Below are positions 42,914 to 64,000 of a stretch of 64,000 nucleotides of DNA, piece after piece (the first letter of the stretch is position 1; every line of letters begins with the position of its first letter). Below the pieces are notes generated by a model. That model saw only the letters and a program-made list of their open reading frames with translations, made no database searches and was not told the DNA's origin. Source of the DNA: an uncultured Sphingomonadaceae bacterium. GTDB lineage: Bacteria > Pseudomonadota > Alphaproteobacteria > Sphingomonadales > Sphingomonadaceae. The DNA lies in the NCBI GenBank assembly GCA_947488625.1, contig CANKZR010000004.1, positions 35,142-99,141 on the forward strand. Reading direction: 5' to 3'. The translations under genes were made by a program, and so were the position numbers.

Positions 42914-43040
42914 AGTACGAAATCATTGTAAAACAATGTACTTAGCAGATTCACCTTACGCTAGAATTGCCTCCATTTCGCCCCTTTTTCCGCTTGCGTG
43001 ATTGCCCGGTGATTGCCAGAAAAGGGACACGAGGTTTCGG

Positions 43041-44252
43041 ATGGCAACAGGAAAAATCACGAAAAAATCGATAGATGCGCTGGAGCCAAGCAGCTCGAGC
43101 CAGCTCCTTTGGGATACGGACCTCAAAGGATTCGGTGCGAAAATCACTCCAGCCGGCTCGATATCCTATGTGCTGCAGTTCCGAATGGGCGGCCGTGAAG
43201 CTCGAACAAGACGCTATACTATCGGGGCGCACGGGTCGCCGTGGACACCGACGACAGCGAGAGTGGAGGCGGAACGCCTTCAGTTACTAATTGCGCAAGG
43301 TATCGACCCTGTAGACGATGATAAGCAGAGGCGCCGCGAAGCCGTCGATCTCGCATTCGACAACTATGCGTCGCATTTCGCTCGGTCCTGCAAGGGTGTT
43401 GGCTGGGCGAGGCTCGTTGAACGCGTCATCCGGCTTTACCTTGAACCGGTTATCGGAAAAAAGCCGCTTCCCCGAGTTTCGAGGCCGGATATCGTAGCCG
43501 TCCTGGACAATATGCCCGAGCATCAGGTTGCCAATCGCCGGAATGTCTTTGCGGTGATGCGGCGCCTATTCCGATGGGCTGTCAGTCGTGGCGATATCGA
43601 GCGCAGTCCCATGGAGGGAATGGAGGCACCACCGCCGGTAAGGCCGCGGGATCGCTGGCTACAGGACGACGAGCTTCGACACATCTGGGAAGCAGCTCCC
43701 GATTGCTATCTTTGCTTTGGTCCAATTGTCCGCTTGCTCATTGCGACAGGGCAACGCCGCGAAGAGGTTTCAGGAATACATTGGCAAGAGGTTGATCGGA
43801 AAGACCGGTTTTGGACGCTGCCAGGTTCACGAACAAAGAATAATGAACCAAACGCGATCCCACTGAACGACCTTGCCGTTGCCGAACTCGATCGGCAGGC
43901 AGGCGGCGCGAACTGGCCGAAGAAAGGGCGCGTTTTTGCCACGTCAAGCGGGGCAGGTTTTACCGGCTACGCCAAGGGCAAGAAGAAACTGGACGGTCTC
44001 ATAGAGCAAAAGCTTGGTGAGCCATTGCAACCCTGGCGCCTGCACGATCTTCGGCGCACGCTTGCGACCAACTTCCAGCGCCTCGGCGTTCGCTTCGAGG
44101 TTACAGAGGCAGTTTTGAACCATGTCAGCGGCTCAAGAGCAGGCGTTGCAGGAATCTACCAGCGCCACGACTGGAAAGACGAGAAGAGAGAAGCGCTCGA
44201 TGATTGGAATGAGCATCTGGTCCAGATACTGAACGGCTCCGAACAGACTTGA
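43041..44252 (+). CDS. int: Tyrosine recombinase/integrase with N-terminal arm-binding (DUF4102-type) domain
   Basis: LLWDTDLKGFG...YTIGAHG arm domain; catalytic TGQRREE, TKN, HDLRRT, LNH and Y (GIYQRH). Confidence 0.95.
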   Translation: MATGKITKKSIDALEPSSSSQLLWDTDLKGFGAKITPAGSISYVLQFRMGGREARTRRYTIGAHGSPWTPTTARVEAERLQLLIAQGIDPVDDDKQRRREAVDLAFDNYASHFARSCKGVGWARLVERVIRLYLEPVIGKKPLPRVSRPDIVAVLDNMPEHQVANRRNVFAVMRRLFRWAVSRGDIERSPMEGMEAPPPVRPRDRWLQDDELRHIWEAAPDCYLCFGPIVRLLIATGQRREEVSGIHWQEVDRKDRFWTLPGSRTKNNEPNAIPLNDLAVAELDRQAGGANWPKKGRVFATSSGAGFTGYAKGKKKLDGLIEQKLGEPLQPWRLHDLRRTLATNFQRLGVRFEVTEAVLNHVSGSRAGVAGIYQRHDWKDEKREALDDWNEHLVQILNGSEQT

Positions 44253-44891: not shown

Positions 44892-45754
44892 CTCTTGGAG
44901 CGACGAGCTTCCGCAAATTCATGGACAGCTGCAAGCTGCTCGGGCCGAAGCGCATCGGTAGCCTGCGGATAATTGGCTACCTCTTCACCGAGCAGAATGG
45001 ATGGACACTGACCTTCGTAGTTCCCAAGATTCGGTCGGTGCTGCGCATAACCTGCCAATTCAGCAAGTTCGGGCGGAAAATTTCGCGCGACCTCTGGCGG
45101 ATATGCCAGCCAAAGGTTCTCGTACGGCTTGAGCCAGCCGAGGCTGTAGCCGATCACAACGCCGCGTCGGACGTCTTCGGTCGAGTTTGGTCCAGCACCG
45201 TGCACGGTCGAACCAAGAAAGCAGATCGCATCACCTGGCTTGCTTGCCGCAACAATCGGATCACCAAGTTGATCGAGGCTCTCGACAGGACGTTTATGTG
45301 TCCCGGGATAGATGCGGGTCGCGCCGTTGGATGAGTTGAAGTCGGTGAGCGGCCAAATGACATTGAGCAGATATTCGTGTTCACCCTTGGCACCGGCCCA
45401 CATGTCGTGATCACAATGCGGGAACTGTTCGATCTCGCCGGGATGAATGGCGATTGCCTGGGCAACGTTAAGCTGAATTCGGTCGCAAGCCTTACCGAGG
45501 ACTTCGCGGGCCAGCGAAAGGATGAGAGGCTGCAGAACAAGGTCACAGGCCCAGCGTGAGCGGCGCAACAAACTACCGAAACGCTTCGTGCGAAACCCGT
45601 AGAAATCGCCGTGACCCATAGGGGTTTCGGTAAAATCCCGTTCAAGATCTGCATCGAGCGCCGCGATGCTGCTCTGAGGAAGGAGGTCCGGAATGATGCA
45701 ATAGCCATCCTTCTGTAGCCGTTCGAGCCAATCGATTGATTTGATATCGCTCAT
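44888..45754 (-). CDS. phyH: Phytanoyl-CoA dioxygenase-family Fe(II)/2-oxoglutarate oxygenase
   Basis: HxD (PHCDHDMW), NGATRIYPGTH and distal His (STVHGAG); ATGA overlap with luxI. Confidence 0.85.
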   Translation of the reverse strand: MSDIKSIDWLERLQKDGYCIIPDLLPQSSIAALDADLERDFTETPMGHGDFYGFRTKRFGSLLRRSRWACDLVLQPLILSLAREVLGKACDRIQLNVAQAIAIHPGEIEQFPHCDHDMWAGAKGEHEYLLNVIWPLTDFNSSNGATRIYPGTHKRPVESLDQLGDPIVAASKPGDAICFLGSTVHGAGPNSTEDVRRGVVIGYSLGWLKPYENLWLAYPPEVARNFPPELAELAGYAQHRPNLGNYEGQCPSILLGEEVANYPQATDALRPEQLAAVHEFAEARRSKR

Positions 45755-46377
45755 GACACCACCTCCGATGCCGCCTCGGCGACCCGGTAGACACCTTTTC
45801 GATAGATACCGCCGCGAGCGAGATCGTCCGGCGTGTCGCAATCTATATCGATCTGCAGTGCGACAAGGTCCTCACCGTCAATCCTGCAGCCGCCGCCAAG
45901 TGTGCGACATTGCCAGCCGAAGCTTTCGATTTGGCGGAACCAAACTCTATTGGCCACAGCGGTGTAGCCCGACAGTCCGGTCTTTAGGGCATGCTCGGCA
46001 AGCGCGGTCACAAGTTGGTCGCGTGCCGTGCGGCGCTCAAACCGCGAGAGCGTGGGTTCGATGCAGAAACGCGTGATCTCGCGAAAATCGGACCGAGAGG
46101 GTATCGGACCATCACACAGACAAGGGAATAGCTCCCCGAGAATGTGAGCGCCGTCAGTCCGCAAAAGGCGCGCTGAAGCGCGATGACGGCCTTCTCCGTC
46201 GGTCAGCACCAAATAGCTCGCATCGGGCGTATCGAACTGGTCGATCTCGTATGCATCATCCAAAACGGGAACATCCCATTTGAGAAGATCGACGAATACC
46301 CGCTTGCGCGCCTCGAACATTACGCGAAGTGCTGGATCCGAAGGGCAAGCTTGGAGAGAAACTGGGGAGTGTTGCAT
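45751..46377 (-). CDS. luxI: Acyl-homoserine lactone synthase (LuxI family)
   Basis: RKRVFVDLLKW, EIDQFD, ARLL and EITRFC conserved LuxI residues; start 46377 (AGGT RBS) or 46416. Confidence 0.93.
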   Translation of the reverse strand: MQHSPVSLQACPSDPALRVMFEARKRVFVDLLKWDVPVLDDAYEIDQFDTPDASYLVLTDGEGRHRASARLLRTDGAHILGELFPCLCDGPIPSRSDFREITRFCIEPTLSRFERRTARDQLVTALAEHALKTGLSGYTAVANRVWFRQIESFGWQCRTLGGGCRIDGEDLVALQIDIDCDTPDDLARGGIYRKGVYRVAEAASEVVS

Positions 46378-46578
46378 GGCGGCTACCTGGCGATTTGAAG
46401 ACAGGTCGCCATTCACCAGATCGGGGCGATCGCAGACATACCAAGAACTGGGGATGCTGCGACTTTGGGGTGCTCATAATCGTGTCATCGGACGCAGTCG
46501 CACCGGCGAGCTCGCTCTGTTCTGTTCCTCTCTTCAAATCTTAATCAGCCAATTTACGGGCCTTGGCGACGTGAAACC

Positions 46579-47025: not shown

Positions 47026-47056
47026 TTGAACCTGTAGTGACTACAGAGATTATATT
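47026..47056 (+). promoter_or_regulatory. MerR-type promoter/operator with 19-bp spacer
   Basis: -35 TTGAAC (47026-31), 19 bp containing the palindrome CTGTAG-TGA-CTACAG, -10 TATATT (47051-56). Confidence 0.88.
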
Positions 47057-47063
47057 GAACTCC

Positions 47064-47426: not shown

Positions 47427-47437
47427 GAGTTAGACGG

Positions 47438-47785
47438 ATGAAAAAAACAATGATTGCCGTTGCTGCCGGATTGGCCATCGCCGGAGCAGGCATTGGGGCA
47501 GCGACGCTCATGCCGCAGTCCTCGAACGAGAAAACCGCTCAAAGTGCTGAAACGCTGCAAACGGCAAGCTTCGCGGTTGAAAATATGACCTGCGCGACCT
47601 GTCCGATCACGGTGCGGCGCGCAATGGAAGGCGTTGCAGGTGTGCATGATGTGACAATCGATTACGAAGCCAAGACTGCTACAGCGCATTTCGATCCTGC
47701 CAAAACCACCATGCGCGACATCGCCACTGCTTCGACCGAGGCAGGCTATCCTGCCCAAACACAATTTAGCGGGACCGACCTCTGA
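47438..47785 (+). CDS. merP: MerP-like periplasmic heavy-metal-binding protein
   Basis: Signal sequence; HMA motif NMTCATCP; C-terminal AGYP. Confidence 0.85.
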   Translation: MKKTMIAVAAGLAIAGAGIGAATLMPQSSNEKTAQSAETLQTASFAVENMTCATCPITVRRAMEGVAGVHDVTIDYEAKTATAHFDPAKTTMRDIATASTEAGYPAQTQFSGTDL

Positions 47786-48003
47786 TGCAATTACAATCCA
47801 CGCTCACGTGCCCTCAGTGCGGACACCAGGAAATCGAAACCATGCCGACCGACGCATGCTGGTTTTTCTACGACTGCAAGGGCTGCGGAATGAAGCTGAA
47901 ACCCAATGCAGGCGACTGCTGTGTCTTCTGTTCGTTCGGCACAGTGCCTTGCCCGCCAATTCAAGAAGCGCGTGCCAATGGCACAAGCGTTGAATGCTGC
48001 TGA
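47785..48003 (+). CDS. Small Cys-rich GDCCVxC-domain protein
   Basis: CPQC, CWFFYDCKGC, GDCCVFCSFGTVPCPP and terminal CC; translationally coupled to merP. Confidence 0.85.
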   Translation: MQLQSTLTCPQCGHQEIETMPTDACWFFYDCKGCGMKLKPNAGDCCVFCSFGTVPCPPIQEARANGTSVECC

Positions 48004-48013
48004 GGTCAATGAC

Positions 48014-49372
48014 ATGAACGAACGCAGCTTCGATCTTATCGTACTCGGCGTCGGAATGGCGGCGGTGAATGCCGCGAACAAATGCGCCGCTGCGGGTTGG
48101 TCGGTCGCAGTGGTTGACGAACTTCCCTATGGCGGCACCTGCGCGCTGCGCGGCTGCGACCCCAAAAAGATGCTGCGGCGAGGCGCCGAAATCATCGATG
48201 GAGCTCGGCTGATGCAGGGCAAGGGTATTGAACCGAATGATATCGCGATCAACTGGGCTGATCTCATCGCCTTCGCTCAGAGCTTTACCGACAGAATGCC
48301 CGAGAAGATCGAGGGCGGTCTCGACAGTAACGGCGTCACCACGCTTCACGGGACGGCGCAATTTGCTGGCGAAGACACGATCGAAATCGAGGGCCAAGGG
48401 CGGTTTCAAGCCAACAATATCCTGATCGCGACTGGCGCCAAGCCCCGCCCTGTGGATATTCCAGGTGCCGAACACCTCACCAACAGCACCGAATTCATGC
48501 GGATGGACGCCCTCCCGAAGCGTATATTGTTTATCGGCGGCGGGTTCGTCTCGTTCGAGTTCGGTCATATCGCTGCACGAGCTGGCAGCGAGGTGCAGAT
48601 CATTAATCGCGGTGACAGGCCATTGAAGGCCTTTGACACAAACCTCGTCGAAAAGCTTTTACCACGAGGTGAGGAAATTGGGGTGGGATTGCGTCGGCGC
48701 ACATCGCTGAAATCTATCGCCACTGACGGCGTCGAATTCATCGTCACTGTCGAAAAGAATGGTGAAACCGAAGACTTGCACGCCGATCTGGTCGTGCACG
48801 GTGCGGGACGCGTGCCTGAAATCGATCGCCTGAACCTGAGCGCTGCCAATATCGAGGCGGGAGACAAGGGAATAGCAGTCAATGAATATTTGCAGAGCCT
48901 GTCCAACCCGAAAATCTACGCCGCAGGCGATGCGGCCAACACGCACGGGCCTCCGTTGACACCTGTCGCAGTATTCGAAGGCAAGGTCGCTGCCTCCAAC
49001 ATGCTCAAGGGCAATCAGACCAAGCCAGACTATCGCGGCGTGCCCAGCGCTGTGTTTACAATTCCGGAATTAACCCGCGTCGGAATGCTCGAAGAAGAAG
49101 CAGAGGAAGCCGGTCACAATATCCGCGTCGCGGAAAACGACACAGGCAATTGGTATTCCAATCTTCGCGTTGGCGAGACCTGTGCTGCCACCAGAATTAT
49201 CATCGATAAAGACACCGACACTATCCTCGGCGCGCATCTGTTTGGACCCGAATACGGGGAGATTATCAATTTCTTCGGCCTTGCAATGAGGCTGTCACTG
49301 ACAACTCGAGATCTGAAGAAATTGGTCGCGGCCTACCCCTCGGTTGGCTCGGATTTAGGGTCCATGCTGTAA
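48014..49372 (+). CDS. Class I pyridine nucleotide-disulfide oxidoreductase, not a canonical MerA
   Basis: Redox motif GGTCALRGCDPKK and GGGFVSFE; no NmerA domain and no C-terminal vicinal Cys pair (ends YPSVGSDLGSML). Confidence 0.85.
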   Translation: MNERSFDLIVLGVGMAAVNAANKCAAAGWSVAVVDELPYGGTCALRGCDPKKMLRRGAEIIDGARLMQGKGIEPNDIAINWADLIAFAQSFTDRMPEKIEGGLDSNGVTTLHGTAQFAGEDTIEIEGQGRFQANNILIATGAKPRPVDIPGAEHLTNSTEFMRMDALPKRILFIGGGFVSFEFGHIAARAGSEVQIINRGDRPLKAFDTNLVEKLLPRGEEIGVGLRRRTSLKSIATDGVEFIVTVEKNGETEDLHADLVVHGAGRVPEIDRLNLSAANIEAGDKGIAVNEYLQSLSNPKIYAAGDAANTHGPPLTPVAVFEGKVAASNMLKGNQTKPDYRGVPSAVFTIPELTRVGMLEEEAEEAGHNIRVAENDTGNWYSNLRVGETCAATRIIIDKDTDTILGAHLFGPEYGEIINFFGLAMRLSLTTRDLKKLVAAYPSVGSDLGSML

Positions 49373-49526
49373 TCTGCTCGATACCAGCTGTTGATCGTCG
49401 GCTTCTGGTGAAGACGTTAGCTGCTTGCATGGTTTGGGGCGTAGAATATTCACTTTCCATCGAGCTTGATGGTCAGCAATTGACGGCCTCCGAGAGGTTC
49501 CGGCCTTAGAGCTTCTGTTTCGCCAA

Positions 49527-50279
49527 TCATCCCGCATCGCGCCATCGGATGATATCGGAAAACCCGATCAGACCATCGAACAGCGCCGAAACGATCAAAG
49601 ATTGCTTACAGTGAACCTGATAGCGTTCTCGCGCCATTTTGAGATGCTGGATTACTGTTTCGGTCGCAATCCCAAGGATCATGGCCGTCTCGGCTGAGGT
49701 CTTGCCTCGTGCGACCCACAGAAGACATTCGCGCTGCCGGTCGCTCAGGACAGGCACGGATTCGTCGGATTGAGCTGAGCCCAGTCCCAGTGCACAGCTC
49801 AGTGCGAGCGTACCGACCATTTCTGCGACCGCAAAGCGACTGTGTGGCAGGTCTCGGTCGGGGCAGACCGCAAATGTACACGTTCCGCGCGCAAGACCGG
49901 GCAAATGTCGCGGGACAGTGTAGCCATCACCGATTCCGCATTCGCGCCCCACCGCCAGCATCTGGCGATCACCGCGAGTTAGCGGGATCAGTTCGCCCAG
50001 TGAGCCCCACGCAAAGCCGACAAACGACTTGTCGCAGGCTCGCCGGACCGGATCCTGTCCGGCCAGATCGAACCCGACATACACCTTGGCCCATTCGTCG
50101 GGATAATCATGCAGGAGCAAACCGGGAGCCTCGCACGATCCTGAACGCAGCTCGAGGCTCAAGGCGAAGTGGTCGAAGCCAAGCCGCCGACAGACTTGCT
50201 TCAGCGCCTGGTCGAGTTCCTCGTCTGACTGGACATTGACCAGTTCGGATGCGAATTCCTCCGCGAAATAAGCCTGCAT
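49527..50279 (-). CDS. luxR: AHL-binding LuxR-family regulator
   Basis: YPDEW..Y...DPV, FAW and G autoinducer-binding residues; HTH LSDRQRECLLWVARGKTS. Confidence 0.93.
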   Translation of the reverse strand: MQAYFAEEFASELVNVQSDEELDQALKQVCRRLGFDHFALSLELRSGSCEAPGLLLHDYPDEWAKVYVGFDLAGQDPVRRACDKSFVGFAWGSLGELIPLTRGDRQMLAVGRECGIGDGYTVPRHLPGLARGTCTFAVCPDRDLPHSRFAVAEMVGTLALSCALGLGSAQSDESVPVLSDRQRECLLWVARGKTSAETAMILGIATETVIQHLKMARERYQVHCKQSLIVSALFDGLIGFSDIIRWRDAG

Positions 50280-50559
50280 AGCCCTGCCCGTCCGATCGGC
50301 AGGGCGCTATCCAACACGCCGCCGTCCGATCGCCTGCTGGTGGCCAGTCCCGGCGCTTCCATTGCACCGGTTCCGGCTGCTGCAGTTGCGCCCCCGAAGG
50401 TCGGGTTCCTTGCGGCGTCGGTCGCGAGATGCAGATCGCGCCACAAGGAGAGGCATAACGACTTCAGCGAATTTGGGATGACTTTGCAAGGACGTAGGCC
50501 TGATATTCGTCTGGCCTGTGACTGGTAGGCCAGCCGGGCGAATACGATTTCGACGCCAG

Positions 50560-51174
50560 TTAATTCGCACAACGCTTGCCCCGTGAGGGATTGAGCAATT
50601 CACGATAACCCTCAGCCGCCATGCGATGCGCTTCGGCGACGAGGCGCTGTGTCTGCCGGCGATGCGATGATGTTTTCCAGTCGATCGCGCGGCCCGCTTT
50701 GAGGCCTGGATAGATCAGTGCCTTGGCGAGCTCTTGCAATGTCACCTGCTTGGGTGAAGCGTCTTCGAGCAGATCGAGAATGGCAAGCAGGATGCTCAGC
50801 CTGTAGCGTTTGTAAGCAGATGGCTTGAGGAGCCGATGGTGCGCCTTTGTCGCCGCGCCCTCTTTCGACCGGTGGAATTCACTGAGAGCTGCTACGCGGA
50901 CACCAAGATCGGCATCGTCGGGGACGACATAGCCATCAATGCCGGGAGATGGCTCGCGCGCCAACAGGACGCGGTGACGATTTCGCGTATCGGAAACCAC
51001 CATGTGCTGTCCGGCATCGTTCTCGTGCTGGGCAATCACCTTGCACTCAGCCAATGTGCCTCTGATTCCGGCAAGGTCCCGGGCGCCGCCAGCCACGATA
51101 ACGACGCTTGCGTTCGCATCGCTTCTCCAGATCGCCGGGCTGTCTGTGGCCGAAACACTCGGATCGAACGGGAA
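50560..51174 (-). CDS. fseA: DUF2285 (RovC/FseA-type) DNA-binding domain, +1 frame of an FseA-like fusion
   Basis: AILD...LQELAKALIYP...WKTSSHRRQTQRL.AEAHRM..EGYRELL; frame is open up to the slippery site and has no RBS-linked ATG of its own. Confidence 0.75.
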   Translation of the reverse strand, partial: FPFDPSVSATDSPAIWRSDANASVVIVAGGARDLAGIRGTLAECKVIAQHENDAGQHMVVSDTRNRHRVLLAREPSPGIDGYVVPDDADLGVRVAALSEFHRSKEGAATKAHHRLLKPSAYKRYRLSILLAILDLLEDASPKQVTLQELAKALIYPGLKAGRAIDWKTSSHRRQTQRLVAEAHRMAAEGYRELLNPSRGKRCAN

Positions 51175-51355
51175 ATTCTAGGCCCCATGACCGAGCTATT
51201 CGCCGCGCGGCGGATGGTTTCTTGTCGCCGGTATCGCGCGAATGAAGTCTGGCATATTGATCCTTGTACGCCGGATTGCGTCGCAGGAATTCCTGCGCGA
51301 AGTCCGAAAAATCGAAGTCGCCTGTACCAGTATCGTCGGCAGATGATTGAGCCAT
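51047..51355 (-). CDS. DUF6499 domain (Msi172-like), zero frame of an FseA-like fusion
   Basis: Strong RBS AAGGAGG; FAQEFLRRNPAY..QY motif followed by SWGLEFP. Confidence 0.75.
   Translation of the reverse strand: MAQSSADDTGTGDFDFSDFAQEFLRRNPAYKDQYARLHSRDTGDKKPSAARRIARSWGLEFPVRSECFGHRQPGDLEKRCERKRRYRGWRRPGPCRNQRHIG
51170..51190 (-). other. Putative +1 programmed ribosomal frameshift site
   Basis: TCA.TGG.GGC.CTA.GAA.TTT.CCC matches TGG.GGV.NTN.NNN.TTT.CSY; UUU-to-UUC slippage lands in the DUF2285 frame. Confidence 0.8.
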
Positions 51356-51747
51356 AGAGCACCTCCTTTCGGCTCGGATGGCTAGCGCCGCGGGATAACA
51401 GCGGACATTCCAAGCATGTGGAGGGGCCCTCCCCAGTACTAGGCATGTGAGTGCCCTATATCGGCGCGACCGCAACGCCGGGCGGGTATCATGATGCCTC
51501 GAAAATGGAGACACTTGCCCCTTGCAAGCTGCTTTTGTCTTGGGCACATTCGACCCGCGCGGTTTGAAACTCTGGCGCCGACCGCGTGGATATTTCCGCC
51601 AGCCATCATGCACGCCGGTCCGCTCAAGGCCCGGCGGCCCAACCGGTCAAGGGACGTCGATACCTCCTGAACGGCGGCACAGTACTGGATCCCGCACTCG
51701 GCTTGCGATGAGGAGCCGCCGATTGCGGTTGCCTCCCAGTCCATTGC

Positions 51748-52329
51748 ATGAACCAGCTTTCTGCCGACACCCGGCGAGACGATCATCAACTATCGAGCTC
51801 CGCGCTGCGAACCCCGGCACCGCAAGCTCGGGTAAGCTCGCCCTGCCCGCTCGACGCCCTGTACCGCCGAGAGAGCGCATGCCTGCTTGCCTATTTTTCG
51901 CGCTGCGTCGGTCGTGAGCGAGCCCGCGATCTGGTTCAGGACGTTTTCGTGCGCGCTGCGACCAGCCCGCAACTGACAGATCTCCGGAACCCGGCAGGAT
52001 TTCTATTCCGGATCGCTCGCAACCTGCTGGTCGATGAAGCCCGCAGACAGAAATGCCGCATCAGGACGGTGCCACTGGTCGAAAACACCGATGCGCCGTG
52101 CTGCGCCGAGCAGGAGGACAGAATTGAGGTGGAAGAGACGACCGGGCGCTTCGAGACCGCGTTGGCGCAGTTGCCCGAGAAAACGGCGGGCATCTTCAGG
52201 ATGAACCGCTTCGAGAAAAAATCCTACCGTCAGATCCACCAAGAGTTGGGCATCGCGCTGCCGACAGTCGATTATCACATGATGAAAGCGCTCGCGCATC
52301 TTCGCACGGTTTTCGCTGATCGCGCCTGA
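51748..52329 (+). CDS. FecI-like ECF sigma factor
   Basis: Region 2 DLVQDVFVR...FLFRIARNLLVD; region 4 LPEK...F.M.R...SY..I...LGI...TV.YH. Confidence 0.85.
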   Translation: MNQLSADTRRDDHQLSSSALRTPAPQARVSSPCPLDALYRRESACLLAYFSRCVGRERARDLVQDVFVRAATSPQLTDLRNPAGFLFRIARNLLVDEARRQKCRIRTVPLVENTDAPCCAEQEDRIEVEETTGRFETALAQLPEKTAGIFRMNRFEKKSYRQIHQELGIALPTVDYHMMKALAHLRTVFADRA

Positions 52330-52452
52330 TTGAGCGCGACAGATTTAACGCACAAAGATCAGGCTTTGCAAATTTAATTTCATTTGAAACTAAGGTGCTC
52401 GTGAATGCCTGCGTCATTCCCTGTGGCGACATAATCGCAACAGATCAGGGAG

Positions 52453-54816
52453 ATGACAATGCAATCGACAATCCGGACAATTACGGCGCTCTTGGCAGGA
52501 ACCGCCCTGGCAGGCTTTTCTTCGCCGCTTCTCGCCCAATCCGCAGGGCCGCCCCAGAGTGAAGTCGATGAAGTGCAGGACGATCATTCGGATGTCGCCA
52601 GCGGGGACAACGCGATCGTCGTTACAGGAACGCGGATCCGGGGCGCGCGGATCATTGGCGATACAATTTCGCTCGACCGCGAGGCGATCGTCGAAGCGGG
52701 CCAGATCGATCTGGGCGAAGCGATCCGGACACTTCCGCAGAACTTTTCCGGCGGGCAAAATCCAGGTATTGGATCAGGCGCAGGGTTCGCCAACAGCAAC
52801 GTAAATTCGGCCTCAAGCGCAAATCTGCGCGGTCTCGGACCAGATGCGACGCTGACACTCCTCAACGGCCACCGGCTACCCTATGATTCCGCTTTTGCAG
52901 GGGTCGACATTTCATCCATCCCGCTCGCGGCGGTCGACCGGATTGAAATCGTTCCGGACGGAGCCTCGGCCCTCTACGGTTCAGATGCGGTCGCGGGCGT
53001 GGTCAATGTAATCCTTCGCCGCGATTTTGAAGGCATCACGACATCCGCGCAGATCGGCGCAAGCACGGATGGCGGCAATTTCCGCCAGCAGGCCGATATA
53101 GTGGCGGGCACGCGCTGGAGCGGGGGCGGGTTCTTCGTCGCTTACGATTTTGCAAACAATTCGGCGATCGAGGCTGGCCAGCGCTCCTATGCCAGCTCGC
53201 TTGATCCGGAGACCACGCTCTTCCCCTCGCAGCAACGCCATGCCGTTACGCTTTCGGCACATCACGAACTCGCGCCCGGCCTCGAGGCCAGTATCGACGC
53301 GCTTTATTCAAGCCGAAGCTCAACGCTCGTGGCCGCATCATCGGCATTTCGATCGGAAGCCGATCCGGAGGTGGAATCCTATACGCTCGCCCCGTCACTG
53401 AAATTCGACGTCGCAGGAGACTGGCAGGCAACAGTGCTGGGAGTGTTCGGCCGCGACCGGACGCACTACCGGACCGCCTTCGCGCTGCAGGACGGGTCGT
53501 CGAGCGTGACCGAGGGGTGTTTTTGCAATGAGGTTTTCTCACTCGAAGCGGGTCTGGAGGGTCCGCTGTTCACGCTTCCCGGAGGCGAGGCGCGTCTGGC
53601 TGTCGGCGCGGGTCTGCGAAACAACACGCTCGATTTCAGCCGCAGCGAAGCGGGAAATTTACTGATCGCTTTCGACAAGACGCAGCGCGCGCGTTTCGCC
53701 TATGGCGAACTCTTCCTGCCGGTCGTTTCGCCGCGTAATGCAATCGATGGAGTCGCCGAGCTGACCCTTTCGGCGGCGGCGCGTCACGAAGATTATCCAG
53801 GCCTCGATCAACAGACGACGCCGCGCTTTGGTTTGAGCTACGCACCGGTCGAAGGGCTGACGTTGCGCGGCAGCTGGGCGCGCTCGTTCAAGGCTCCGAC
53901 CCTCTTTCAGCGTTTCATACCCTATCAGACCATTCTGCTGCCAGCGGCCGTATTCGGCGCCGGAGCGGGGTCCGACACGGTGTTTTTCACAAGCGGCGGC
54001 AATCCGGACGTGACATCGGAACGCGCGCGCAGCTGGACCGCCGGTGTGGAGCTGCAGCCGGTCGCCATTCCCGAACTGACGATTTCGGCCACTTGGTACG
54101 ACATTCGCTATCAAGACCGGGTGGTGCGACCGATTGCGGGCTCGATTGCGGCTGCTTTCCGCGACCCGGGGTTTGCAAACCTGATCGATTTCTCTCCCGA
54201 TCCGACAACTTTATCCGAGCTCATTACTGGATCGCTATTCGGTCTCGAAAACTTCTCGGGCTCCCCCTACGATCCCGCCAATGTTGCCGCCTTTGTCGAC
54301 AACCGGAACAGAAACGTTGCGGTTTGGGCCATCGAAGGCGTGGATGCGAGGATCGCCTGGAACCAGAACCTGGGCGACGAACAGTCACTTTCCTTCGATC
54401 TCTCGGGCAGCTTCCTCGATAGCCAGCAACAGGTCACGCCCGATCTGTCCGAGGTTCAGCTAGCCGGAACGGTTTTCAATCCACCACGCTACCGTGCGCG
54501 GGGCACGGCGCGCTATCAGTCTGGCGGGTTCGCGGCCAATATCGCCGCCAACTATATCGGCGCGCTGCGCGACCGCCGCTTCGAGGAAGAGCGCCGCCTT
54601 TCGCCCAGCGCCACGGTCGATCTCGGCCTGAGCTATGAAATTGTTCGCGGTGAGAGCCGCGAACCAGGCCTCGAAATCTCGCTCACGATCCAGAACCTGT
54701 TCGACGAAGAACCCGAAACGCTCGGCCAGACCGGGCCGACGGACACACCCTATGATTCAACCAATTATTCGCCGATCGGGCGGTTCGTCACCTTCGGCAT
54801 CCGGAGGCACTGGTGA
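52453..54816 (+). CDS. TonB-dependent receptor (lasso-cluster associated)
   Basis: Signal peptide, IVVTGTR TonB box, NLRGLG..TLTLLNG plug, YGSDAVAGVVN, C-terminal W; no STN domain. Confidence 0.93.
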   Translation: MTMQSTIRTITALLAGTALAGFSSPLLAQSAGPPQSEVDEVQDDHSDVASGDNAIVVTGTRIRGARIIGDTISLDREAIVEAGQIDLGEAIRTLPQNFSGGQNPGIGSGAGFANSNVNSASSANLRGLGPDATLTLLNGHRLPYDSAFAGVDISSIPLAAVDRIEIVPDGASALYGSDAVAGVVNVILRRDFEGITTSAQIGASTDGGNFRQQADIVAGTRWSGGGFFVAYDFANNSAIEAGQRSYASSLDPETTLFPSQQRHAVTLSAHHELAPGLEASIDALYSSRSSTLVAASSAFRSEADPEVESYTLAPSLKFDVAGDWQATVLGVFGRDRTHYRTAFALQDGSSSVTEGCFCNEVFSLEAGLEGPLFTLPGGEARLAVGAGLRNNTLDFSRSEAGNLLIAFDKTQRARFAYGELFLPVVSPRNAIDGVAELTLSAAARHEDYPGLDQQTTPRFGLSYAPVEGLTLRGSWARSFKAPTLFQRFIPYQTILLPAAVFGAGAGSDTVFFTSGGNPDVTSERARSWTAGVELQPVAIPELTISATWYDIRYQDRVVRPIAGSIAAAFRDPGFANLIDFSPDPTTLSELITGSLFGLENFSGSPYDPANVAAFVDNRNRNVAVWAIEGVDARIAWNQNLGDEQSLSFDLSGSFLDSQQQVTPDLSEVQLAGTVFNPPRYRARGTARYQSGGFAANIAANYIGALRDRRFEEERRLSPSATVDLGLSYEIVRGESREPGLEISLTIQNLFDEEPETLGQTGPTDTPYDSTNYSPIGRFVTFGIRRHW

Positions 54817-59801: not shown

Positions 59802-60038
59802 CTACTGGTCTGGTTTGGCGGCGGCTCGCCTGCGCAATCGCGCGAAGTCCCTGTCGCTCGCAATGAACCGCTCCAGCATTGGCGAGACGAGAAGAGCGGG
59901 ATCCGGAGCGTTCTCCGGTGTCCCGCCATTTATCACGCGGGCATATTCGGCCAGCTTGCGATGCAGCCGGACCGGTATCTCGACGGTCAGCTTGACTGTT
60001 TTTTGATCCTCGATGTCGGATAGCTTCAGGCGGGTCAT
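59802..60038 (-). CDS. DUF2274 domain protein (last gene of trb operons)
   Basis: LKL..IED.K.VKLTVE....L...L..YA...PMLERFIASDRDF; ATGA overlap with trbI. Confidence 0.85.
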   Translation of the reverse strand: MTRLKLSDIEDQKTVKLTVEIPVRLHRKLAEYARVINGGTPENAPDPALLVSPMLERFIASDRDFARLRRRAAAKPDQ

Positions 60039-61210
60039 GAGCGGCTGTCCAGGATAATATCGCGCGTTACCAGAACGCGCACCGGGTAACCGGGGCGGAT
60101 CGTCAATGTCGGACGGATGGCAAGCTCGCGAGAGACAACCTGCTCGCCCACCTGGTTGACGCTGTCCTGACCTCCCCGGCGCACGGCACGCAGCAAATCG
60201 CTGTCGCCTCCCGGACCAAGCTCGCCGCCGATACCTAGTAGAGTCGAGACCAGCGCTGCCTTGAACACACCGCCCCAATGATAGTCGACGCCGTCTTCCA
60301 GTCCGGCATAGCCTGCCGGATCGACCGCAGGCTGGCGCTCGAGAACCAGCGAGCGCCCGTCGGGCAGGATCAGGCGATTCCATGCCAGCAGCACGCGGCG
60401 CTCGCCGAAGCCGACATCGGACGCATAATCGCCGATAAGGCGCGCGCCCTGGGGAATAAGCAGAATCCGCCCGGTGAGGCTGTCATAGACATTCTGCGTG
60501 ACTTGCGCGGTCACAAGGCCGGGCTGGTCTGACCGGACGCCGGTGATAAGCGCCGCAGGAATGACCGAGCCTGCCTGAAGCACTGCATCCGTCGGCGCCG
60601 CGGCGAGCTGCTGCAATGCAGCGGTGCGCCGATCGGCCGGGCGGTCGAGGAAAGCGGGCGCAGATCTCACGGCCTCGGTCGCGGTCACAGGCTGCGATGC
60701 GTTCGAACTGGCTGTTGGCGGTGCATCGGTGCTTGAAACCGCCGTAGCGCCCGCAAAGAACAGCGCGCTGGCACGGGCCGCTTCGCGCTCCTGCTCGATG
60801 CGCTGACGCGCTGCCTCTGCGGGACTTATTCCCTGCGTCTGCGGCGGCGCGGGCTGCGATCCGACTGGTGGAAGCGCAGCGACAGCTCCGCGATCCTGGG
60901 CATTGAGGATGGGCTCGCCGAGATCGCCGGGAAGCGACGGGCCGAGACGCGGAACCTGCGAATAGTCGCTCGGGCCCGACGCAAGACCGTCGGCGACCGC
61001 CACTGTTTCGGTTCCAAAAAGCTCATCCGGCCCTGCCTCCGAGACCGGTTGCAGGGCGTAAATCATCGCGCCGCCGACCAGCGTCAGAGCGGCGGCGCTG
61101 GCGATGCCGATGGCTTTGCGCGAGAGGCGAACGACGCGCGGCCCCTCACCGCGCAAGCGAACGATGGATTCAGCATCAGCAGGCCGGTCCGGTTCGGATT
61201 CACTGTTCAT
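60035..61210 (-). CDS. trbI: Conjugal transfer protein TrbI (VirB10)
   Basis: LQAGSVIPAALITG, IPQGARLIG, GYAGLEDGVDYHW and PTLTIRPG motifs. Confidence 0.95.
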   Translation of the reverse strand: MNSESEPDRPADAESIVRLRGEGPRVVRLSRKAIGIASAAALTLVGGAMIYALQPVSEAGPDELFGTETVAVADGLASGPSDYSQVPRLGPSLPGDLGEPILNAQDRGAVAALPPVGSQPAPPQTQGISPAEAARQRIEQEREAARASALFFAGATAVSSTDAPPTASSNASQPVTATEAVRSAPAFLDRPADRRTAALQQLAAAPTDAVLQAGSVIPAALITGVRSDQPGLVTAQVTQNVYDSLTGRILLIPQGARLIGDYASDVGFGERRVLLAWNRLILPDGRSLVLERQPAVDPAGYAGLEDGVDYHWGGVFKAALVSTLLGIGGELGPGGDSDLLRAVRRGGQDSVNQVGEQVVSRELAIRPTLTIRPGYPVRVLVTRDIILDSRS

Positions 61211-62205
61211 GACCGGCCCCACGCCCGATTGGTGATTTTGACCCGAACCTGCCTGCGCCTGGCACCAAGCCGCAGTTCGGCCTTCTCGAACAGGCGGTCC
61301 ACAATCAGATAGCGGCCCGAAACGCGGTAGTTGACCAGCTCCGCCTGCCCATCCTCGCCGACGACGAAAAACGGCGGCATTTCACCTTGCGCAATATCGG
61401 GCGGAAATTCGATCAGGGTGCGCTGCCCGTCATCGAATATCCGCACCGGCCGCCAGTCGGGCCTATCGCCCGAAATCCGGTAGTCGAAGTTGAGATTCTC
61501 GACCGCGAAACCGCTTGCAACGGGCGCGGCGCGCGCTGCGTCCTCTTCGGCCCGGCGAAGAGCGATCAGTTCATCTGCCGGATAGCTCCAGCTGACCGAC
61601 GCCATATAGACACTGGGATTGGCCCGCAGTTCGACATGATAGGTTCGCCGATCGGTGTTGATCACGAGATTGGTCGTAATATCGGGCCGGGTGGGTTTCA
61701 CGAGGATGTGGACGCGCGCCGCCTCGCCCGTCCCGCTCATCGTATCGCCGATCATCCAGCGCACCGTATCGCCAGCGGCAACCGGTCCGGGACCGACGAG
61801 CTTTTCGCCCTCCTGCAATGCGATATCGGTGACCTGGCCCGGCTTGGTATAGACCTGAAACAGAGCGCCCTCGCTATAGGGATAGCGCTGGATCGCATTG
61901 TCGAATCCGACGTCGTCGGGCTCGACCCGTGCGGCATCGTTTGCCGCTCCCACTTGGCTCTGGGGATCAGGGGCAGGTCCAGAGCCAGGGGAGCGGCGCG
62001 CGGCAGTGGGGGAGGCCTGCCGCGAACTGAAAAGGAGAGAAATACCGATGTTGTCTTGCAGGACCGGGAAAGCCCCTGCGAGCGCGCCCAATGCTTCGAT
62101 TGACGCCGCCGCCTGCGGGGCAGGTGTCGCAGCGACAGGCGCGGCAAGAGCGAGCGAGACAAGGCCGAAAAAGCCGATCGTGGGAAGTGCATGCGAGCGG
62201 GACAT
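61207..62205 (-). CDS. trbG: Conjugal transfer protein TrbG (VirB9)
   Basis: VAAGDTVRW, TNLVINTDRRTYH, MASVSW.YP and LVNYRV motifs. Confidence 0.93.
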   Translation of the reverse strand: MSRSHALPTIGFFGLVSLALAAPVAATPAPQAAASIEALGALAGAFPVLQDNIGISLLFSSRQASPTAARRSPGSGPAPDPQSQVGAANDAARVEPDDVGFDNAIQRYPYSEGALFQVYTKPGQVTDIALQEGEKLVGPGPVAAGDTVRWMIGDTMSGTGEAARVHILVKPTRPDITTNLVINTDRRTYHVELRANPSVYMASVSWSYPADELIALRRAEEDAARAAPVASGFAVENLNFDYRISGDRPDWRPVRIFDDGQRTLIEFPPDIAQGEMPPFFVVGEDGQAELVNYRVSGRYLIVDRLFEKAELRLGARRRQVRVKITNRAWGRS

Positions 62206-62885
62206 CAGCCGAGCTCCTTTGACCAGTTGATGGAAGTGACGAAAATTCCGAGCGGGTTTCTGCGAAGCGCATCCGCGTTGGTTGGTGGCTGGACGGCGAT
62301 GCCCAAAATCGCGGTCCAGCGGCTCGTCTCGGCAAGCGAGCCGTCACGGTAGCGGCGCTCGATCCAGGCCACGCGGAAGCTCCTCGGCGAGGCGCGGATG
62401 ACGCTTGTGACATCGACCGCAACCTGTTCGCGGCCGATCGCGGCGAACGGATCGCTGCGCCGAGCATAGTCGTTGAGCGCCAGCGCGCCTTTGTCGCTGG
62501 CAAAGTCATAGGCTGACAGCCAATTCTCGCGCACCACGACCGGATCGTCAGGAATGGCGCGCACGTTTTCGATAAACCGGGCAAGATGGAACGCGATCTG
62601 GGGATCGCTTGGGTCGAATGCGACATTGGCAGGCGCAACGCTGCGCGCTTCGCCGAGCTTGTTCACCTCGACCACCCAGGGAACGATGGTTCCCCGCGCA
62701 TTCTGCCAGACGAGACTGCCAGTCAGGATTCCCGATAATCCAAGCGCACCGAAAAACGCATAGCGCCAGCTTCTCGCCTGAATGCGCGCCGAACCGATGC
62801 GATCGTCCCAGACCTGGGCCGCGCGCTGGTAAGGTGTCTCGGCTTGCGGTGTCTTACCGTATCGGATCGAAGGGCGTTTAAACAT
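62205..62885 (-). CDS. trbF: Conjugal transfer protein TrbF
   Basis: ETPYQRAAQVWDDRIGSAR, DPVVVRENW and RNPLGIFV..INWS motifs. Confidence 0.95.
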   Translation of the reverse strand: MFKRPSIRYGKTPQAETPYQRAAQVWDDRIGSARIQARSWRYAFFGALGLSGILTGSLVWQNARGTIVPWVVEVNKLGEARSVAPANVAFDPSDPQIAFHLARFIENVRAIPDDPVVVRENWLSAYDFASDKGALALNDYARRSDPFAAIGREQVAVDVTSVIRASPRSFRVAWIERRYRDGSLAETSRWTAILGIAVQPPTNADALRRNPLGIFVTSINWSKELG

Positions 62886-62891
62886 GAGGCG

Positions 62892-64000
62892 TCAGTCCTT
62901 TTCCTGAGTGTCGATGGAAGCGCCTGCGCCGTGCCCGTCGCCAGAGCGAACGGTGTGCGCGGCAAGCGACGCTGAATGTCCAAGAGACTGTCGCTGCTTC
63001 ATGGATTTCGCCCAGCTCGGCGGGCCGTTTTCGGACGCTGGCGAAGACGGCGGCGAGGAGGCGACCCGGCCACCCATATTGCTGGCTGCTGCACGCGCAC
63101 CTTCGCGAAAATTTCGTTTGGCGCTATCCGCCGCCTTACGCAGAGGTGAGAGGGCAGCACCGCCTGCGGCGCGTCCGACACTCGCCATGCCGCCTGCAAC
63201 CGCACCGCCGCCGCTCTTGCCTGCCGAACCTGTTGCGTAGGCCATGGTGGCACCTCCAGCAGCGCGCGATGCGCCACTGGCGACCGAGGATGCTGCGCTG
63301 GCTACAGCGCCGCCCGCAAGCTTGGCACCGGCAATGCCGCCGACGGCTGCCCCGCCGGCCAGCACAGCGGTGCCTGCCGCGGCCCCTGCGCCGAGCTGGG
63401 GGCCGCCTGCGACGATGCCGTTGGCGATACCGGGACCGAATATGCCGAGCCCGAGCAGGGTAAGACTGGCGAGCACGATCGCCAGCGCGTCTTCGATGGT
63501 CGGGTCGCCCGGGATGGCGCTGGTAAACTCAGCGAAAAGCGTCGAGCCGATCCCGATAATCACGGCGAGCACGAGTACTTTGATCCCTGAGGAGACGACA
63601 TTGCCCAGCACGCGCTCGGCCATGAAAGCGGTCTTGCCGAACAGGCCGAAAGGGATGAGCACGAAGCCTGCAAGCGTCGTCAGCTTGAATTCGATGAGCG
63701 TCACGAAGAGCTGGATCGACAGAATGAAGAAGGCGATGACCACCAAGGCCCAGGCCACCAGCAGGATGATGATCTGCAGAAAGTTCTCGAAGAAGCTTAT
63801 ATAGCCGAGCAGATCGGCCATCGACGCAAGCAAAGGCGCGGCAGCATCGATACCGACCTGCGCGACCCGGCCCGGCTGCAGCAGATCGGCTGCGCCAACG
63901 CCAGAACCGCTGGCCTTGAGGCCAAGTCCGGCAAAGCTTTGAAATATGATATTGGCCAGCGCGCTCCAATTGCCGATGATATAGGCGAAGATTCCGACGA
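62892..64000 (-). CDS. trbL: Conjugal transfer protein TrbL (VirB6), 5' part beyond the window
   Basis: IQLFVTLIEFKLTTLAGFVL.PF...KT.F.AERVLG, GPGIANG..GGPQLGAG and an A/G-rich tail; frame open to the window edge. Confidence 0.93.
   Translation of the reverse strand, partial: VGIFAYIIGNWSALANIIFQSFAGLGLKASGSGVGAADLLQPGRVAQVGIDAAAPLLASMADLLGYISFFENFLQIIILLVAWALVVIAFFILSIQLFVTLIEFKLTTLAGFVLIPFGLFGKTAFMAERVLGNVVSSGIKVLVLAVIIGIGSTLFAEFTSAIPGDPTIEDALAIVLASLTLLGLGIFGPGIANGIVAGGPQLGAGAAAGTAVLAGGAAVGGIAGAKLAGGAVASAASSVASGASRAAGGATMAYATGSAGKSGGGAVAGGMASVGRAAGGAALSPLRKAADSAKRNFREGARAAASNMGGRVASSPPSSPASENGPPSWAKSMKQRQSLGHSASLAAHTVRSGDGHGAGASIDTQEKD

What the first reader, a model, noticed from the sequence alone, without database searches (positions are those of the whole stretch)
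50560..51355. FseA-like transfer activator encoded through a +1 programmed ribosomal frameshift
Seen: a DUF6499-type ORF (ATG 51355, RBS AAGGAGG) contains TCA.TGG.GGC.CTA.GAA.TTT.CCC at 51190-51170. Slipping UUU to UUC enters the frame reading FPFDPSVSATDSPAIW... into the DUF2285 domain (stop 50560), which has no good start of its own. Predicted fusion is 61+203 = 264 aa. Established: Mesorhizobium msi172-msi171 produce FseA by +1 frameshifting at a SRV.TGG.GGV.NTN.NNN.TTT.CSY motif; six of seven codons match here. Inference: this is a low-efficiency recoding switch gating transfer of a sphingomonad ICE, which pipelines would annotate as two hypotheticals or a pseudogene.
Basis: partly seen in the sequence, partly recalled or inferred. 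Interest (0 to 1): 0.75.

Follow-up and report, generated by a model that had tools for sequence, protein, structure and literature searches.

The report
Frameshifted FseA-type ICE transfer activator
A regulator gene on a mobile element of marine sphingomonad-type bacteria is split into two reading frames and can only be made whole if the ribosome slips forward one base at a conserved UUU_C site; this is a real but already well-documented kind of recoding switch (FseA) that limits when the element transfers itself.

Summary
On the minus strand, ATG 51355 (RBS AAGGAGG) opens a 61-codon DUF6499 segment. It ends at TCA TGG GGC CTA GAA TTT CCC (51190-51170). The +1 frame from 51171 to stop 50560 encodes the middle and DUF2285 domains.

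The split is not an error or a dead gene:
- The block TGGGGNCTN-NNN-TTTY, the RBS and start, and the 56-codon spacing are kept in every close or moderately related homologue. These are 15 genome or assembly loci and about 25 metagenome variants, down to 34-48% protein identity.
- The substitution phase jumps by +1 exactly at the site.
- Five invariant residues lie between the site and the first possible +1-frame start codon.
- Only relatives at 38% identity or less are single ORFs, and they align without a gap to the predicted 264-aa fusion.

The gene sits about 8 kb inside an ICE inserted at the 3' end of trmB. The ICE order is integrase, luxI, mer, luxR, fseA, ECF sigma and lasso-peptide cluster, trb T4SS.

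This is the FseA (msi172-msi171) mechanism. The literature reports it in about 61% of 4709 curated homologues, so this is a new member of a known kind. Frameshift efficiency, the rdfS target and any QseM partner remain untested.

The parts
51362..51368 (-). Shine-Dalgarno AAGGAGG, 6 nt upstream of the fseA start codon
   Evidence: AAAGGAGG(T/G)GCT..ATG is invariant in all lineages compared.
51173..51355 (-). fseA 0-frame segment (msi172-like). It runs from ATG to the slippery TTT, 61 codons, and encodes the DUF6499 domain with the FAQEFLRRN motif.
   Evidence: PF20109, E 1.6e-15. The start lies exactly 56 codons before TGG in every lineage.
51170..51190 (-). +1 PRF site, TCA TGG GGC CTA GAA TTT CCC. 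It has a G-rich SD-like UGGGGC (the WG codons) and a slippery UUU_C at 51175-51172. A +1-frame TAG at 51180-51178 closes the +1 frame just upstream.
   Evidence: TGGGG-CT-GA-TTT is the only invariant block in a 130-nt alignment of 10 lineages. TTT makes up only 26% of Phe codons and TCA 8% of Ser codons in this window.
50560..51171 (-). fseA +1-frame segment (msi171-like). It has 203 codons plus the TAA stop. It contains the conserved FDP..PAIW linker, a beta-rich middle domain, and the DUF2285 extended-turn HTH.
   Evidence: PF10074, E 7e-19; invariant D64 P65 P73 A74 W76 .... Third-position substitution phase fits the +1 frame.
51047..51355 (-). Non-shifted 0-frame product, 102 aa: DUF6499 plus a non-conserved tail. 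It is the equivalent of Msi172.
   Evidence: The tail sequence and the stop position are not conserved: 2, about 16 and 41 codons after TTT in different lineages.
49527..50279 (-). LuxR/TraR-type AHL receptor immediately downstream of fseA on the same strand
   Evidence: Autoind_bind plus GerE. It is syntenic in all loci and 82-86% identical where FseA is 42-48%.
45751..46416 (-). LuxI-type AHL synthase, followed by phyH and gntR on the same strand. A mer operon separates it from luxR.
43002..44252 (+). Tyrosine integrase of the ICE. The left ICE border lies at about 42,900, the 3' end of trmB.
   Evidence: Identity to L002/L003 jumps from 62-87% to 96-100% at about 42,890-42,905.
60035..63833 (-). 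trbL-trbF-trbG-trbI genes of the conjugative type IV secretion system, with DUF2274 just downstream at about 59,802-60,035

Best explanation
This is an fseA gene, the master transcriptional activator of excision and transfer of an integrative and conjugative element (ICE). Its full-length product needs a programmed +1 ribosomal frameshift.

Proposed mechanism:
1. Ribosomes start at ATG 51355 and translate 61 codons of the DUF6499 domain.
2. With tRNA-Phe on UUU (51175-51173) in the P site, a fraction of ribosomes slip one base forward onto UUC.
3. Those ribosomes continue in the +1 frame through the FDP..PAIW linker, the middle domain and the DUF2285 DNA-binding domain to TAA 50560. The product is a 264-aa activator.
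4. Ribosomes that do not slip make a 102-aa DUF6499-only protein.

By analogy with ICEMlSymR7A, the frameshift keeps activator output low. The element, which is integrated at trmB and carries LuxR/LuxI, would then excise and transfer in only a few cells or only under strong quorum-sensing induction.

Shown here: the two-frame gene architecture, deep conservation of the site, the coding-phase switch, and the ICE and quorum-sensing context.

Inferred from the family: slippage by the ribosome rather than by RNA polymerase, low efficiency, activation of an rdfS-type promoter, and control by LuxR.
For: Architecture and domains.

Conservation of the split and of TGGGGNCTN-NNN-TTTY:
- It is present in L001-L012 and L018-L020, which include the cultured isolates Erythrobacter sp. 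AP23, Stakelama marina, Qipengyuania, Croceicoccus and Pelagerythrobacter.
- It is present in all but one of the metagenome variants that extend far enough to show the site; the exception, L108, has no fseA downstream.
- Codon variants (CTA/T/C/G; GAA/GAG/GAC/CGA/GTC; TTT C/T) leave the slippery core intact.

Start and spacing: the RBS and ATG are invariant and the ATG-to-TGG spacing is fixed at 56 codons.

Coding phase: most substitutions fall at 0-frame position 3 upstream and at +1-frame position 3 downstream. L019 gives [6,10,13] upstream and [65,35,27] downstream. L020 gives [14,6,21] and [72,34,31].

Shift window: the +1-frame TAG in this window and a 0-frame TGA two codons after TTT in L004/L005 confine the shift to GAA-TTT-CCC-GAT.

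Need for a shift: invariant residues D64, P65, P73, A74 and W76 lie upstream of the first +1-frame start, GTG 51096.

Fused relatives: single-ORF relatives align without a gap across the junction.

Not an artefact: no indel appears at the site in a roughly 750x assembly or in RNA-labelled assemblies.

Literature: FseA is made by a +1 PRF at UUUC after the WGL codons (UGGGGG), at 4-13% efficiency, and about 61% of 4709 homologues are split (PMC10359603, PMC4755241).

ICE context.
Against: - There is no direct evidence of the frameshifted protein or of its efficiency.
- No conserved stimulatory RNA structure flanks the site (consensus -3.7 kcal/mol). The 0-frame A-site codon CCC is not rare, at 35% of Pro codons. 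The only visible stimulators are therefore the slippery codon and the upstream G-run.
- The rdfS-type target operon is not in the window or within 10 kb in related loci, so the output of the switch is inferred.
- No QseM-like DUF2285 paralogue was detected in the window or within 10 kb in related loci.
- The AF2 model of the fusion is poor (pLDDT 59). Foldseek and HMMER found no significant PDB match, so fold-level kinship to RovC or QseM was not reproduced here.
Confidence: 0.88

Rival explanations
1. The gene is truly split. The DUF6499 protein (0 frame) and a DUF2285 protein are made separately, by internal initiation (for example GTG 51096) or by termination-reinitiation, and act as a non-covalent pair.
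For: ORF callers find a 178-aa GTG ORF at 50560-51096. FseA's DUF6499 and DUF2285 domains contact each other, and the free-standing DUF2285 protein QseM can bind DUF6499. Association in trans is therefore conceivable.
Against: - Five invariant residues (D64 P65 P73 A74 W76) and the conserved linker lie upstream of GTG 51096. In this window they are closed off upstream by TAG 51180-51178, so no start codon can reach them.
- There is no SD before GTG 51096.
- The 0-frame stop position varies from 2 to 41 codons after the site, so coupling geometry is not conserved, while the slippery block is invariant.
- Fused homologues exist and align without a gap.
- In Mesorhizobium the single fused polypeptide is the active form.
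Confidence: 0.05
2. The gene is a pseudogene, or the split is a sequencing or assembly error: a 1-nt deletion in an originally single fseA ORF.
For: One related copy, L018, carries a second frameshift inside DUF2285 and a truncated integrase. Decayed copies therefore do exist.
Against: - The same frame structure is found in more than 30 independent assemblies, including cultured isolates and a roughly 750x assembly.
- The downstream frame stays open and under purifying selection down to 34-48% identity.
- The rare codons TTT and TCA are fixed at the site.
Confidence: 0.02
3. The frame is restored at the RNA level, by RNA polymerase slippage at the TTTCCC run, rather than by the ribosome.
For: It was not directly excluded. 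Assemblies drop rare variants, and no raw RNA reads covered the site.
Against: - The homopolymer runs are only 3 nt long, whereas productive transcriptional slippage normally needs about 7 or more (established knowledge; reviewed in PMC5009743).
- RNA-labelled contigs across the site show no indel.
- The Mesorhizobium site was shown to act by tRNA-Phe UUU-to-UUC slippage.
Confidence: 0.03

Closest known systems
FseA (msi172-msi171) of Mesorhizobium japonicum R7A ICEMlSymR7A
   Same: - The N-terminal DUF6499 carries the xxEFLRRN helix and the C-terminal domain is DUF2285.
- The two ORFs are joined by a +1 PRF at UUU_C, directly after the WGL codons (UGGGGN).
- It lies on an ICE with a LuxR/LuxI quorum-sensing module and a Trb T4SS.
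   Different: - Gene order differs. Here fseA precedes luxR (and luxI) on the same strand. In R7A the operon is traI2-msi172-msi171, with a convergent qseM.
- No QseM-like paralogue or rdfS is seen nearby.
- The G-run is UGGGGC rather than UGGGGG.
- The hosts are marine Sphingomonadales (mainly Erythrobacteraceae; also Stakelama, Sphingomonadaceae), and the ICE inserts at trmB.
- Function is untested.
Split DUF6499 | DUF2285 pairs on sphingomonad plasmids (for example Blastomonas sp. RAC04 pBSY18_2 and Novosphingobium sp. PP1Y)
   Same: They share the two-ORF architecture, at 32-38% identity to the fusion. RefSeq annotates them as two separate genes.
   Different: On the plasmid the pair sits directly upstream of an 80-aa HTH protein, DUF2840, an S26 peptidase, a lytic transglycosylase, a T4CP and a MobF relaxase. 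That is an rdfS-traF-like transfer operon. In the window's ICE that operon is not adjacent.
Single-ORF FseA homologues (Sphingomonas spp. L014-L016; P0015-P0030) and RovC of Yersinia
   Same: They have the same two domains in one frame, and the junction aligns without a gap to the predicted fusion. Pfam names PF10074 after RovC.
   Different: They have no recoding. RovC regulates a T6SS rather than an ICE, and according to it lacks helix alpha-1. No significant sequence or fold match to RovC was obtained here.
prfB (RF2) +1 programmed frameshift
   Same: A P-site tRNA slips +1 on a slippery codon (CUU_U there, UUU_C here), and there is an upstream SD-like G-rich element.
   Different: prfB uses a 3-nt SD spacing and a slow in-frame UGA in the A site for autoregulation. 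Here the G-run ends 7 nt before UUU, and the A-site codon is an ordinary sense codon (CCC/CCU/UCU/CAU/CGU). The prfB comparison rests on established knowledge, not on a test made here.

Membership tests
FseA family (frameshifted excision activator) | N-terminal DUF6499 domain with the conserved 'AWEFLRRN'-type helix | tested here: met
   PF20109 scores E 1.6e-15 over residues 3-62. The motif FAQEFLRRN is present and identical in all lineages.
FseA family (frameshifted excision activator) | C-terminal DUF2285 extended-turn HTH domain | tested here: met
   PF10074 scores E 7e-19 over residues 143-254, against a gathering cut-off of 26.4 bits with 68.8 bits observed.
FseA family (frameshifted excision activator) | The two domains are joined through the conserved +1 PRF site: WGL codons (UGGGGN) followed by slippery UUU_C | tested here: met
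   UGG GGC CUA GAA UUU C lies at 51187-51172. It is conserved in all split relatives.
FseA family (frameshifted excision activator) | Interdomain Arg (EFLRRN) to Asp (DUF2285 helix 1) contact | tested here: inconclusive
   Both residues are present. The Asp (D194 in LLAILD) is invariant in A1. The AF2 model is too poor (pLDDT 59) to judge the contact.
FseA family (frameshifted excision activator) | Fold related to the RovC / QseM DUF2285 structures | tested here: inconclusive
   Foldseek against the PDB gave no match with E of 0.001 or below. phmmer and a profile search against the PDB gave none either.
FseA family (frameshifted excision activator) | A frameshifted full-length polypeptide is actually produced, at low percentage | not testable with these tools
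   This needs a reporter assay or mass spectrometry. The only available facts are the absence of RNA or DNA indels in assemblies.
FseA family (frameshifted excision activator) | Binds an inverted-repeat FseA box and activates the rdfS (excisionase) promoter | not testable with these tools
   No rdfS-like gene lies in the 21 kb of ICE inside the window or in the flanks of related loci. A plasmid relative does sit next to such an operon.
ICEMlSymR7A-type QS/antiactivation circuit | Resides on an ICE with a LuxR/LuxI quorum-sensing module | tested here: met
   The window holds an integrase, LuxI, LuxR and TrbLFGI. A mobile-element border lies at trmB.
ICEMlSymR7A-type QS/antiactivation circuit | An adjacent QseM antiactivator (a lone DUF2285 protein) with QseC | tested here: not met
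   No second DUF2285 hit appears in the six-frame ORFs of the window or of 20 loci within 10 kb either side. Small ORFs in the fseA-luxR gap have no Pfam hit. Sensitivity for a short divergent QseM is limited, and the rest of the ICE was not seen.

The most novel reading that the evidence does not exclude
This Sphingomonadales (mainly Erythrobacteraceae) ICE family may wire FseA differently from the Mesorhizobium paradigm.

- fseA heads the quorum-sensing block (fseA-luxR-luxI), with no adjacent QseM antiactivator. The +1 PRF would then be the main brake.
- FseA diverges much faster (42-48% identity) than its neighbour LuxR (82-86%). This could reflect element-specific promoter recognition.
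- The fseA upstream region is shared with a deeply conserved, roughly 185-nt element (51532-51716). That element looks like an undescribed structured leader RNA of the divergent ECF-sigma and lasso-peptide module. It could couple peptide sensing to ICE activation.
Probability: 0.15. Interest if true: 0.55.

Novelty: new member of a known kind. Interest (0 to 1): 0.28.

Why it matters
The case mainly matters for annotation.
- It is a clean example of a recoded gene that pipelines report as two hypothetical proteins (DUF6499 and DUF2285).
- It identifies the probable master switch of a trmB-integrating ICE family that is widespread in marine Sphingomonadales, mainly Erythrobacteraceae. That family carries mercury resistance and a lasso-peptide cluster.

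It adds no new principle. The FseA +1 frameshift and its wide distribution are already published.

The comparative data add modest value:
- They narrow the shift window to four codons.
- They show tolerated variants of the slippery context: UUU_U, and GAA/GAG/GAC/CGA/GUC before UUU.
- They show that no flanking RNA structure is conserved. This constrains models of how the site works.

Tried and rejected
- PDB searches by sequence. Both the single protein and the 13-sequence profile gave only chance hits.
- Fold comparison. The AF2 model from a 13-sequence alignment was poor (pLDDT 59.3). Foldseek against the PDB returned only weak glyoxalase-like matches to the middle beta domain and no RovC or QseM. 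The fold-level test is therefore inconclusive.
- Stimulatory RNA structure around the PRF site. None is conserved.
- Promoter and terminator scan of 49400-51800. It found no sigma-70-like site and one terminator-like hit, no more than chance. I found no convincing lux/tra box by eye in the aligned upstream regions.
- Search for a QseM-like second DUF2285. None was found.
- Reaching the rest of the ICE to find rdfS.
- The original PNAS 2015 paper is not held. The supplement of Jowsey 2023 does not list taxa.
- Megablast of 12 kb against plasmids gave only a merT fragment.
- Raw RNA-seq reads of a species that carries a close copy (X46, X47) laid no reads. Transcript strand and ends remain unknown.

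Full report
**Observation**

The minus strand of 50560-51355 was read directly.
- ATG 51355 is preceded by AAGGAGG at 51368-51362.
- The 0 frame gives a 102-aa product that ends at TGA 51047.
- The heptacodon TCA TGG GGC CTA GAA TTT CCC occupies 51190-51170.
- The +1 frame from 51171 reads PFDPSVSATDSPAIW... to TAA 50560.
- Pfam places PF20109 (DUF6499, now Trans_reg_dom) on residues 3-62 of the fusion. It places PF10074 (DUF2285, now RovC_DNA-bd) on residues 143-254.
- The +1 frame is closed by TAG 51180-51178 immediately before AAT TTC. Its first start codon, GTG 51096, lies 25 codons downstream and has no SD.
- The degenerate motif TGGGGNCTNGANTTTY occurs once in the window and in none of 100 shuffles.

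**Is the split real and selected?**

A protein search with the fusion returned 34 relatives.
- Those at 39-97% identity are all DUF2285-only ORFs whose upstream extensions read ...GHGA(L)NFPFDP, which is the +1 frame across the site. They come with partner DUF6499 ORFs that end SWGLEFP...
- Proteins carrying both domains in one frame appear only at 38% identity or less.

A scan of GTDB representative genomes gave 17 loci.
- tblastn shows a +1 frame change at query residue 60-62 in L001-L011. L012 is also split, at TGG GGG CTG GAC TTT C.
- L014-L016 (two Sphingomonas isolates and one unclassified Pseudomonadota MAG) are single ORFs reading RWGLVRLFDP.
- The split loci include cultured isolates of Erythrobacter, Stakelama, Qipengyuania, Croceicoccus and Pelagerythrobacter.

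Three intermediate relatives were fetched by exact-protein look-up: L018 at 88%, L019 at 72% and L020 at 67% identity.

In a 10-lineage DNA alignment the only invariant block is TGGGG-CT-GA-TTT. The Leu codon uses all four CTN forms.

A metagenome scan, launched for another purpose, added about 20 more distinct variants. All those with enough downstream sequence are split, with one exception: L108, a weak rearranged block match, has no fseA downstream. New tolerated forms are GAG TTT T, CGA TTT C, GTC TTT C and ACA TGG.

The RBS and ATG are invariant, and the ATG lies exactly 56 codons before TGG in every lineage except L012, where no such RBS-ATG motif was found.

**Coding-phase test**

Substitutions against the window were counted by phase.
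- For L019, the counts are [6,10,13] upstream of the site and [65,35,27] downstream.
- For L020, they are [14,6,21] upstream and [72,34,31] downstream.

The wobble position therefore moves from 0-frame position 3 to +1-frame position 3 at the site. This is what a protein read in two frames predicts. A pseudogene, or a 0-frame continuation, would not give this pattern.

**Locating the shift**

In this window the +1 frame carries a TAG that overlaps CTA GAA. In L004 and L005 the 0 frame stops two codons after TTT. Taken together, these confine the shift to GAA-TTT-CCC-GAT.

TTT accounts for only 26% of Phe codons, and TCA for 8% of Ser codons, in the window's genes. Both are nevertheless fixed at the site. 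This points to selection on the nucleotides themselves.

Residues D64, P65, P73, A74 and W76 are invariant in alignment A1. They lie between the site and GTG 51096, so they can only be translated after a shift. The predicted fusion aligns without a gap to single-ORF homologues across the junction, WGL-EFP-FDP against WGL-VRL-FDP.

**Artefact checks**
- The same sequence, without an indel, is present in many independent marine metagenomes.
- It is present in an isolate-like assembly at about 750x depth.
- It is present in three RNA-labelled assemblies that span the site. This is weak evidence, because they are contigs and DNA carry-over is possible.

**Mechanistic features**

No conserved secondary structure flanks the site (RNAalifold -3.7 kcal/mol). 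The 0-frame A-site codon is variable and not rare. The visible determinants are the slippery UUU_Y and the G-run 7 nt upstream. This agrees with the published description of the Mesorhizobium site: UUUC, a conserved G-rich region, and WGL encoded by an RBS-like UGGGGG, with 4-13% efficiency.

**Context**

The window is chromosomal up to trmB (42089-42913). This stretch includes rpoN, an lptB-like ABC ATPase, a response regulator and others.

Identity to the near-identical elements L002 and L003 jumps from 62-87% to 96-100% at about 42,900. That marks the left end of an ICE inserted at the 3' end of trmB in different hosts.

Reading inward from that end, the ICE carries:
- integrase, 43002-44252
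- gntR, phyH and luxI
- merR-merT-merP-merA
- luxR, 49527-50279
- fseA
- a divergent ECF sigma, a TonB-dependent receptor and an S9 peptidase
- a lasso-peptide C/B/precursor set
- DUF2274, then trbI-G-F-L

This order is conserved in all related loci. FseA is the most divergent gene of the block, at 42-48% identity, while LuxR is at 82-86%.

No second DUF2285 (QseM-like) ORF was found in the window or within 10 kb in 20 loci. No rdfS-like gene was found either.

Plasmid relatives are annotated by RefSeq as separate DUF6499 and DUF2285 genes. In Blastomonas pBSY18_2 the pair lies directly upstream of an HTH, S26 peptidase, lytic transglycosylase, T4CP and relaxase operon of the rdfS-traF type. 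This supports the family's role as a transfer activator.

**Comparison with what is known**

FseA of ICEMlSymR7A is made from msi172-msi171 by exactly this kind of +1 PRF. Jowsey et al. 2023 curated 4709 homologues from alpha-, beta- and gamma-proteobacteria. About 61% of them are split by the conserved site, and the authors note that such genes are routinely misannotated.

The present gene meets the sequence-level defining features: both domains, the EFLRRN helix, and the WGL-UUU_C site. Two tests could not be completed:
- Fold-level similarity to RovC or QseM could not be reproduced, because the model was poor.
- Functional features cannot be tested with these tools.

The gene is best filed as a new member of a known kind. 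It sits on a previously undescribed ICE lineage, mainly of Erythrobacteraceae. As far as the held literature shows, that lineage has a different local gene order and no adjacent antiactivator.

**Verdict**

- Confidence that full-length FseA needs a +1 frameshift at UUU_C: about 0.9.
- Confidence that it gates ICE excision and transfer: about 0.7, by homology only.
- Interest is low to moderate, because the phenomenon is published and common.

**Side finding: a conserved upstream element**

A roughly 185-nt element at 51532-51716, between fseA and the ECF sigma gene, is far more conserved than the flanking genes.
- It recurs, always about 320-380 nt upstream of the fseA ATG, in 43 of 119 metagenome 17-mer hits.
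- It has no Rfam match.
- Read on the + strand it folds into a 35-pair consensus with 98% of cells paired. Nine pairs show compensatory changes, against 3.2 in shuffles (0 of 500 shuffles reach the observed value). Many G-U pairs would be A-C mismatches on the other strand.
- The minus-strand fold is weaker: 25 pairs, 4 of them compensatory.

It may be an undescribed leader RNA of the ECF-sigma and lasso-peptide module. Its relation to fseA control is open.

Noticed in passing
window 51532-51716 (+ strand favoured): A roughly 185-nt intergenic element lies between fseA and the divergent ECF sigma gene. It is nearly invariant across lineages whose FseA is only 42-48% identical. There are 31 distinct variants. 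The predicted + strand structure has 35 pairs, 98% paired, with 9 pairs showing compensatory change against 3.2 in shuffles (0 of 500 shuffles reach the observed value). It has no Rfam match. It is a candidate undescribed leader or cis-regulatory RNA.
   Followed up: partly
window 51748-59472: A lasso-peptide module is carried as ICE cargo. Its parts are an ECF sigma (51748-52329), a TonB-dependent receptor (52453-54816), an S9 peptidase that may be a lasso isopeptidase (54813-56963), an Asn-synthase-like cyclase (56952-58751, minus strand), a transglutaminase-like B protein (58670-59275, minus strand), and a 45-aa subterisin-type precursor (59335-59472, minus strand; PF24178, E 1.9e-13).
   Followed up: partly
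window 46579-49372: A merR-merT-merP-(small ORF)-merA mercury-resistance operon is inserted between luxR and luxI. In relatives L006 and L011-L012, luxR and luxI are adjacent and no mer genes were found. In L007-L010 they are also adjacent and a different mer set sits next to the integrase.
   Followed up: partly
window 42880-42913 (trmB 3' end) and loci L002, L003, L020, L005, L007-L010: The ICE left border shows as a sharp identity step at about 42,900, from 62-87% in trmB to 96-100% in the element. The same insertion site next to trmB is used in several genera, which implies recent horizontal spread. No tRNA gene is present in the window.
   Followed up: partly
fseA versus luxR across loci L004-L011: FseA is the fastest-evolving gene of the conserved block, at 42-48% identity. 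The adjacent LuxR is 74-86% identical (82-86% in L004-L010) and the integrase 76-80%. This could reflect diversifying selection or module exchange. It was not analysed further.
   Followed up: no
locus L018 (ENA contig_17546), 9875-10694: This is a decayed relative. The PRF site is intact, but there is a second frameshift inside DUF2285, the integrase is truncated to 210 aa, and the luxI-phyH-gntR block is replaced.
   Followed up: no
window 51205-51739: In RNA-labelled run X25, one contig covers the conserved element plus the first roughly 150 nt of fseA at depth 64. The fseA body has depth 5. The contig ends sharply at 51739, with adapter sequence following, 9 nt before the ECF sigma ATG. 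This could be a discrete abundant transcript. Its strand is unknown.
   Followed up: no
window 19906-19982 (- strand): An Rfam hit to suhB/mmgR sRNA (RF00519) scores 58.8 bits, E 1.5e-9. It lies in the chromosomal part of the window.
   Followed up: no
window 51188-51190 and homologous positions: The codon before TGG is the rare Ser codon TCA (8% of Ser codons) in most lineages. TCG, ACA, CAC and CCC occur in others. This hints that the nucleotide constraint extends 5' of the G-run.
   Followed up: no
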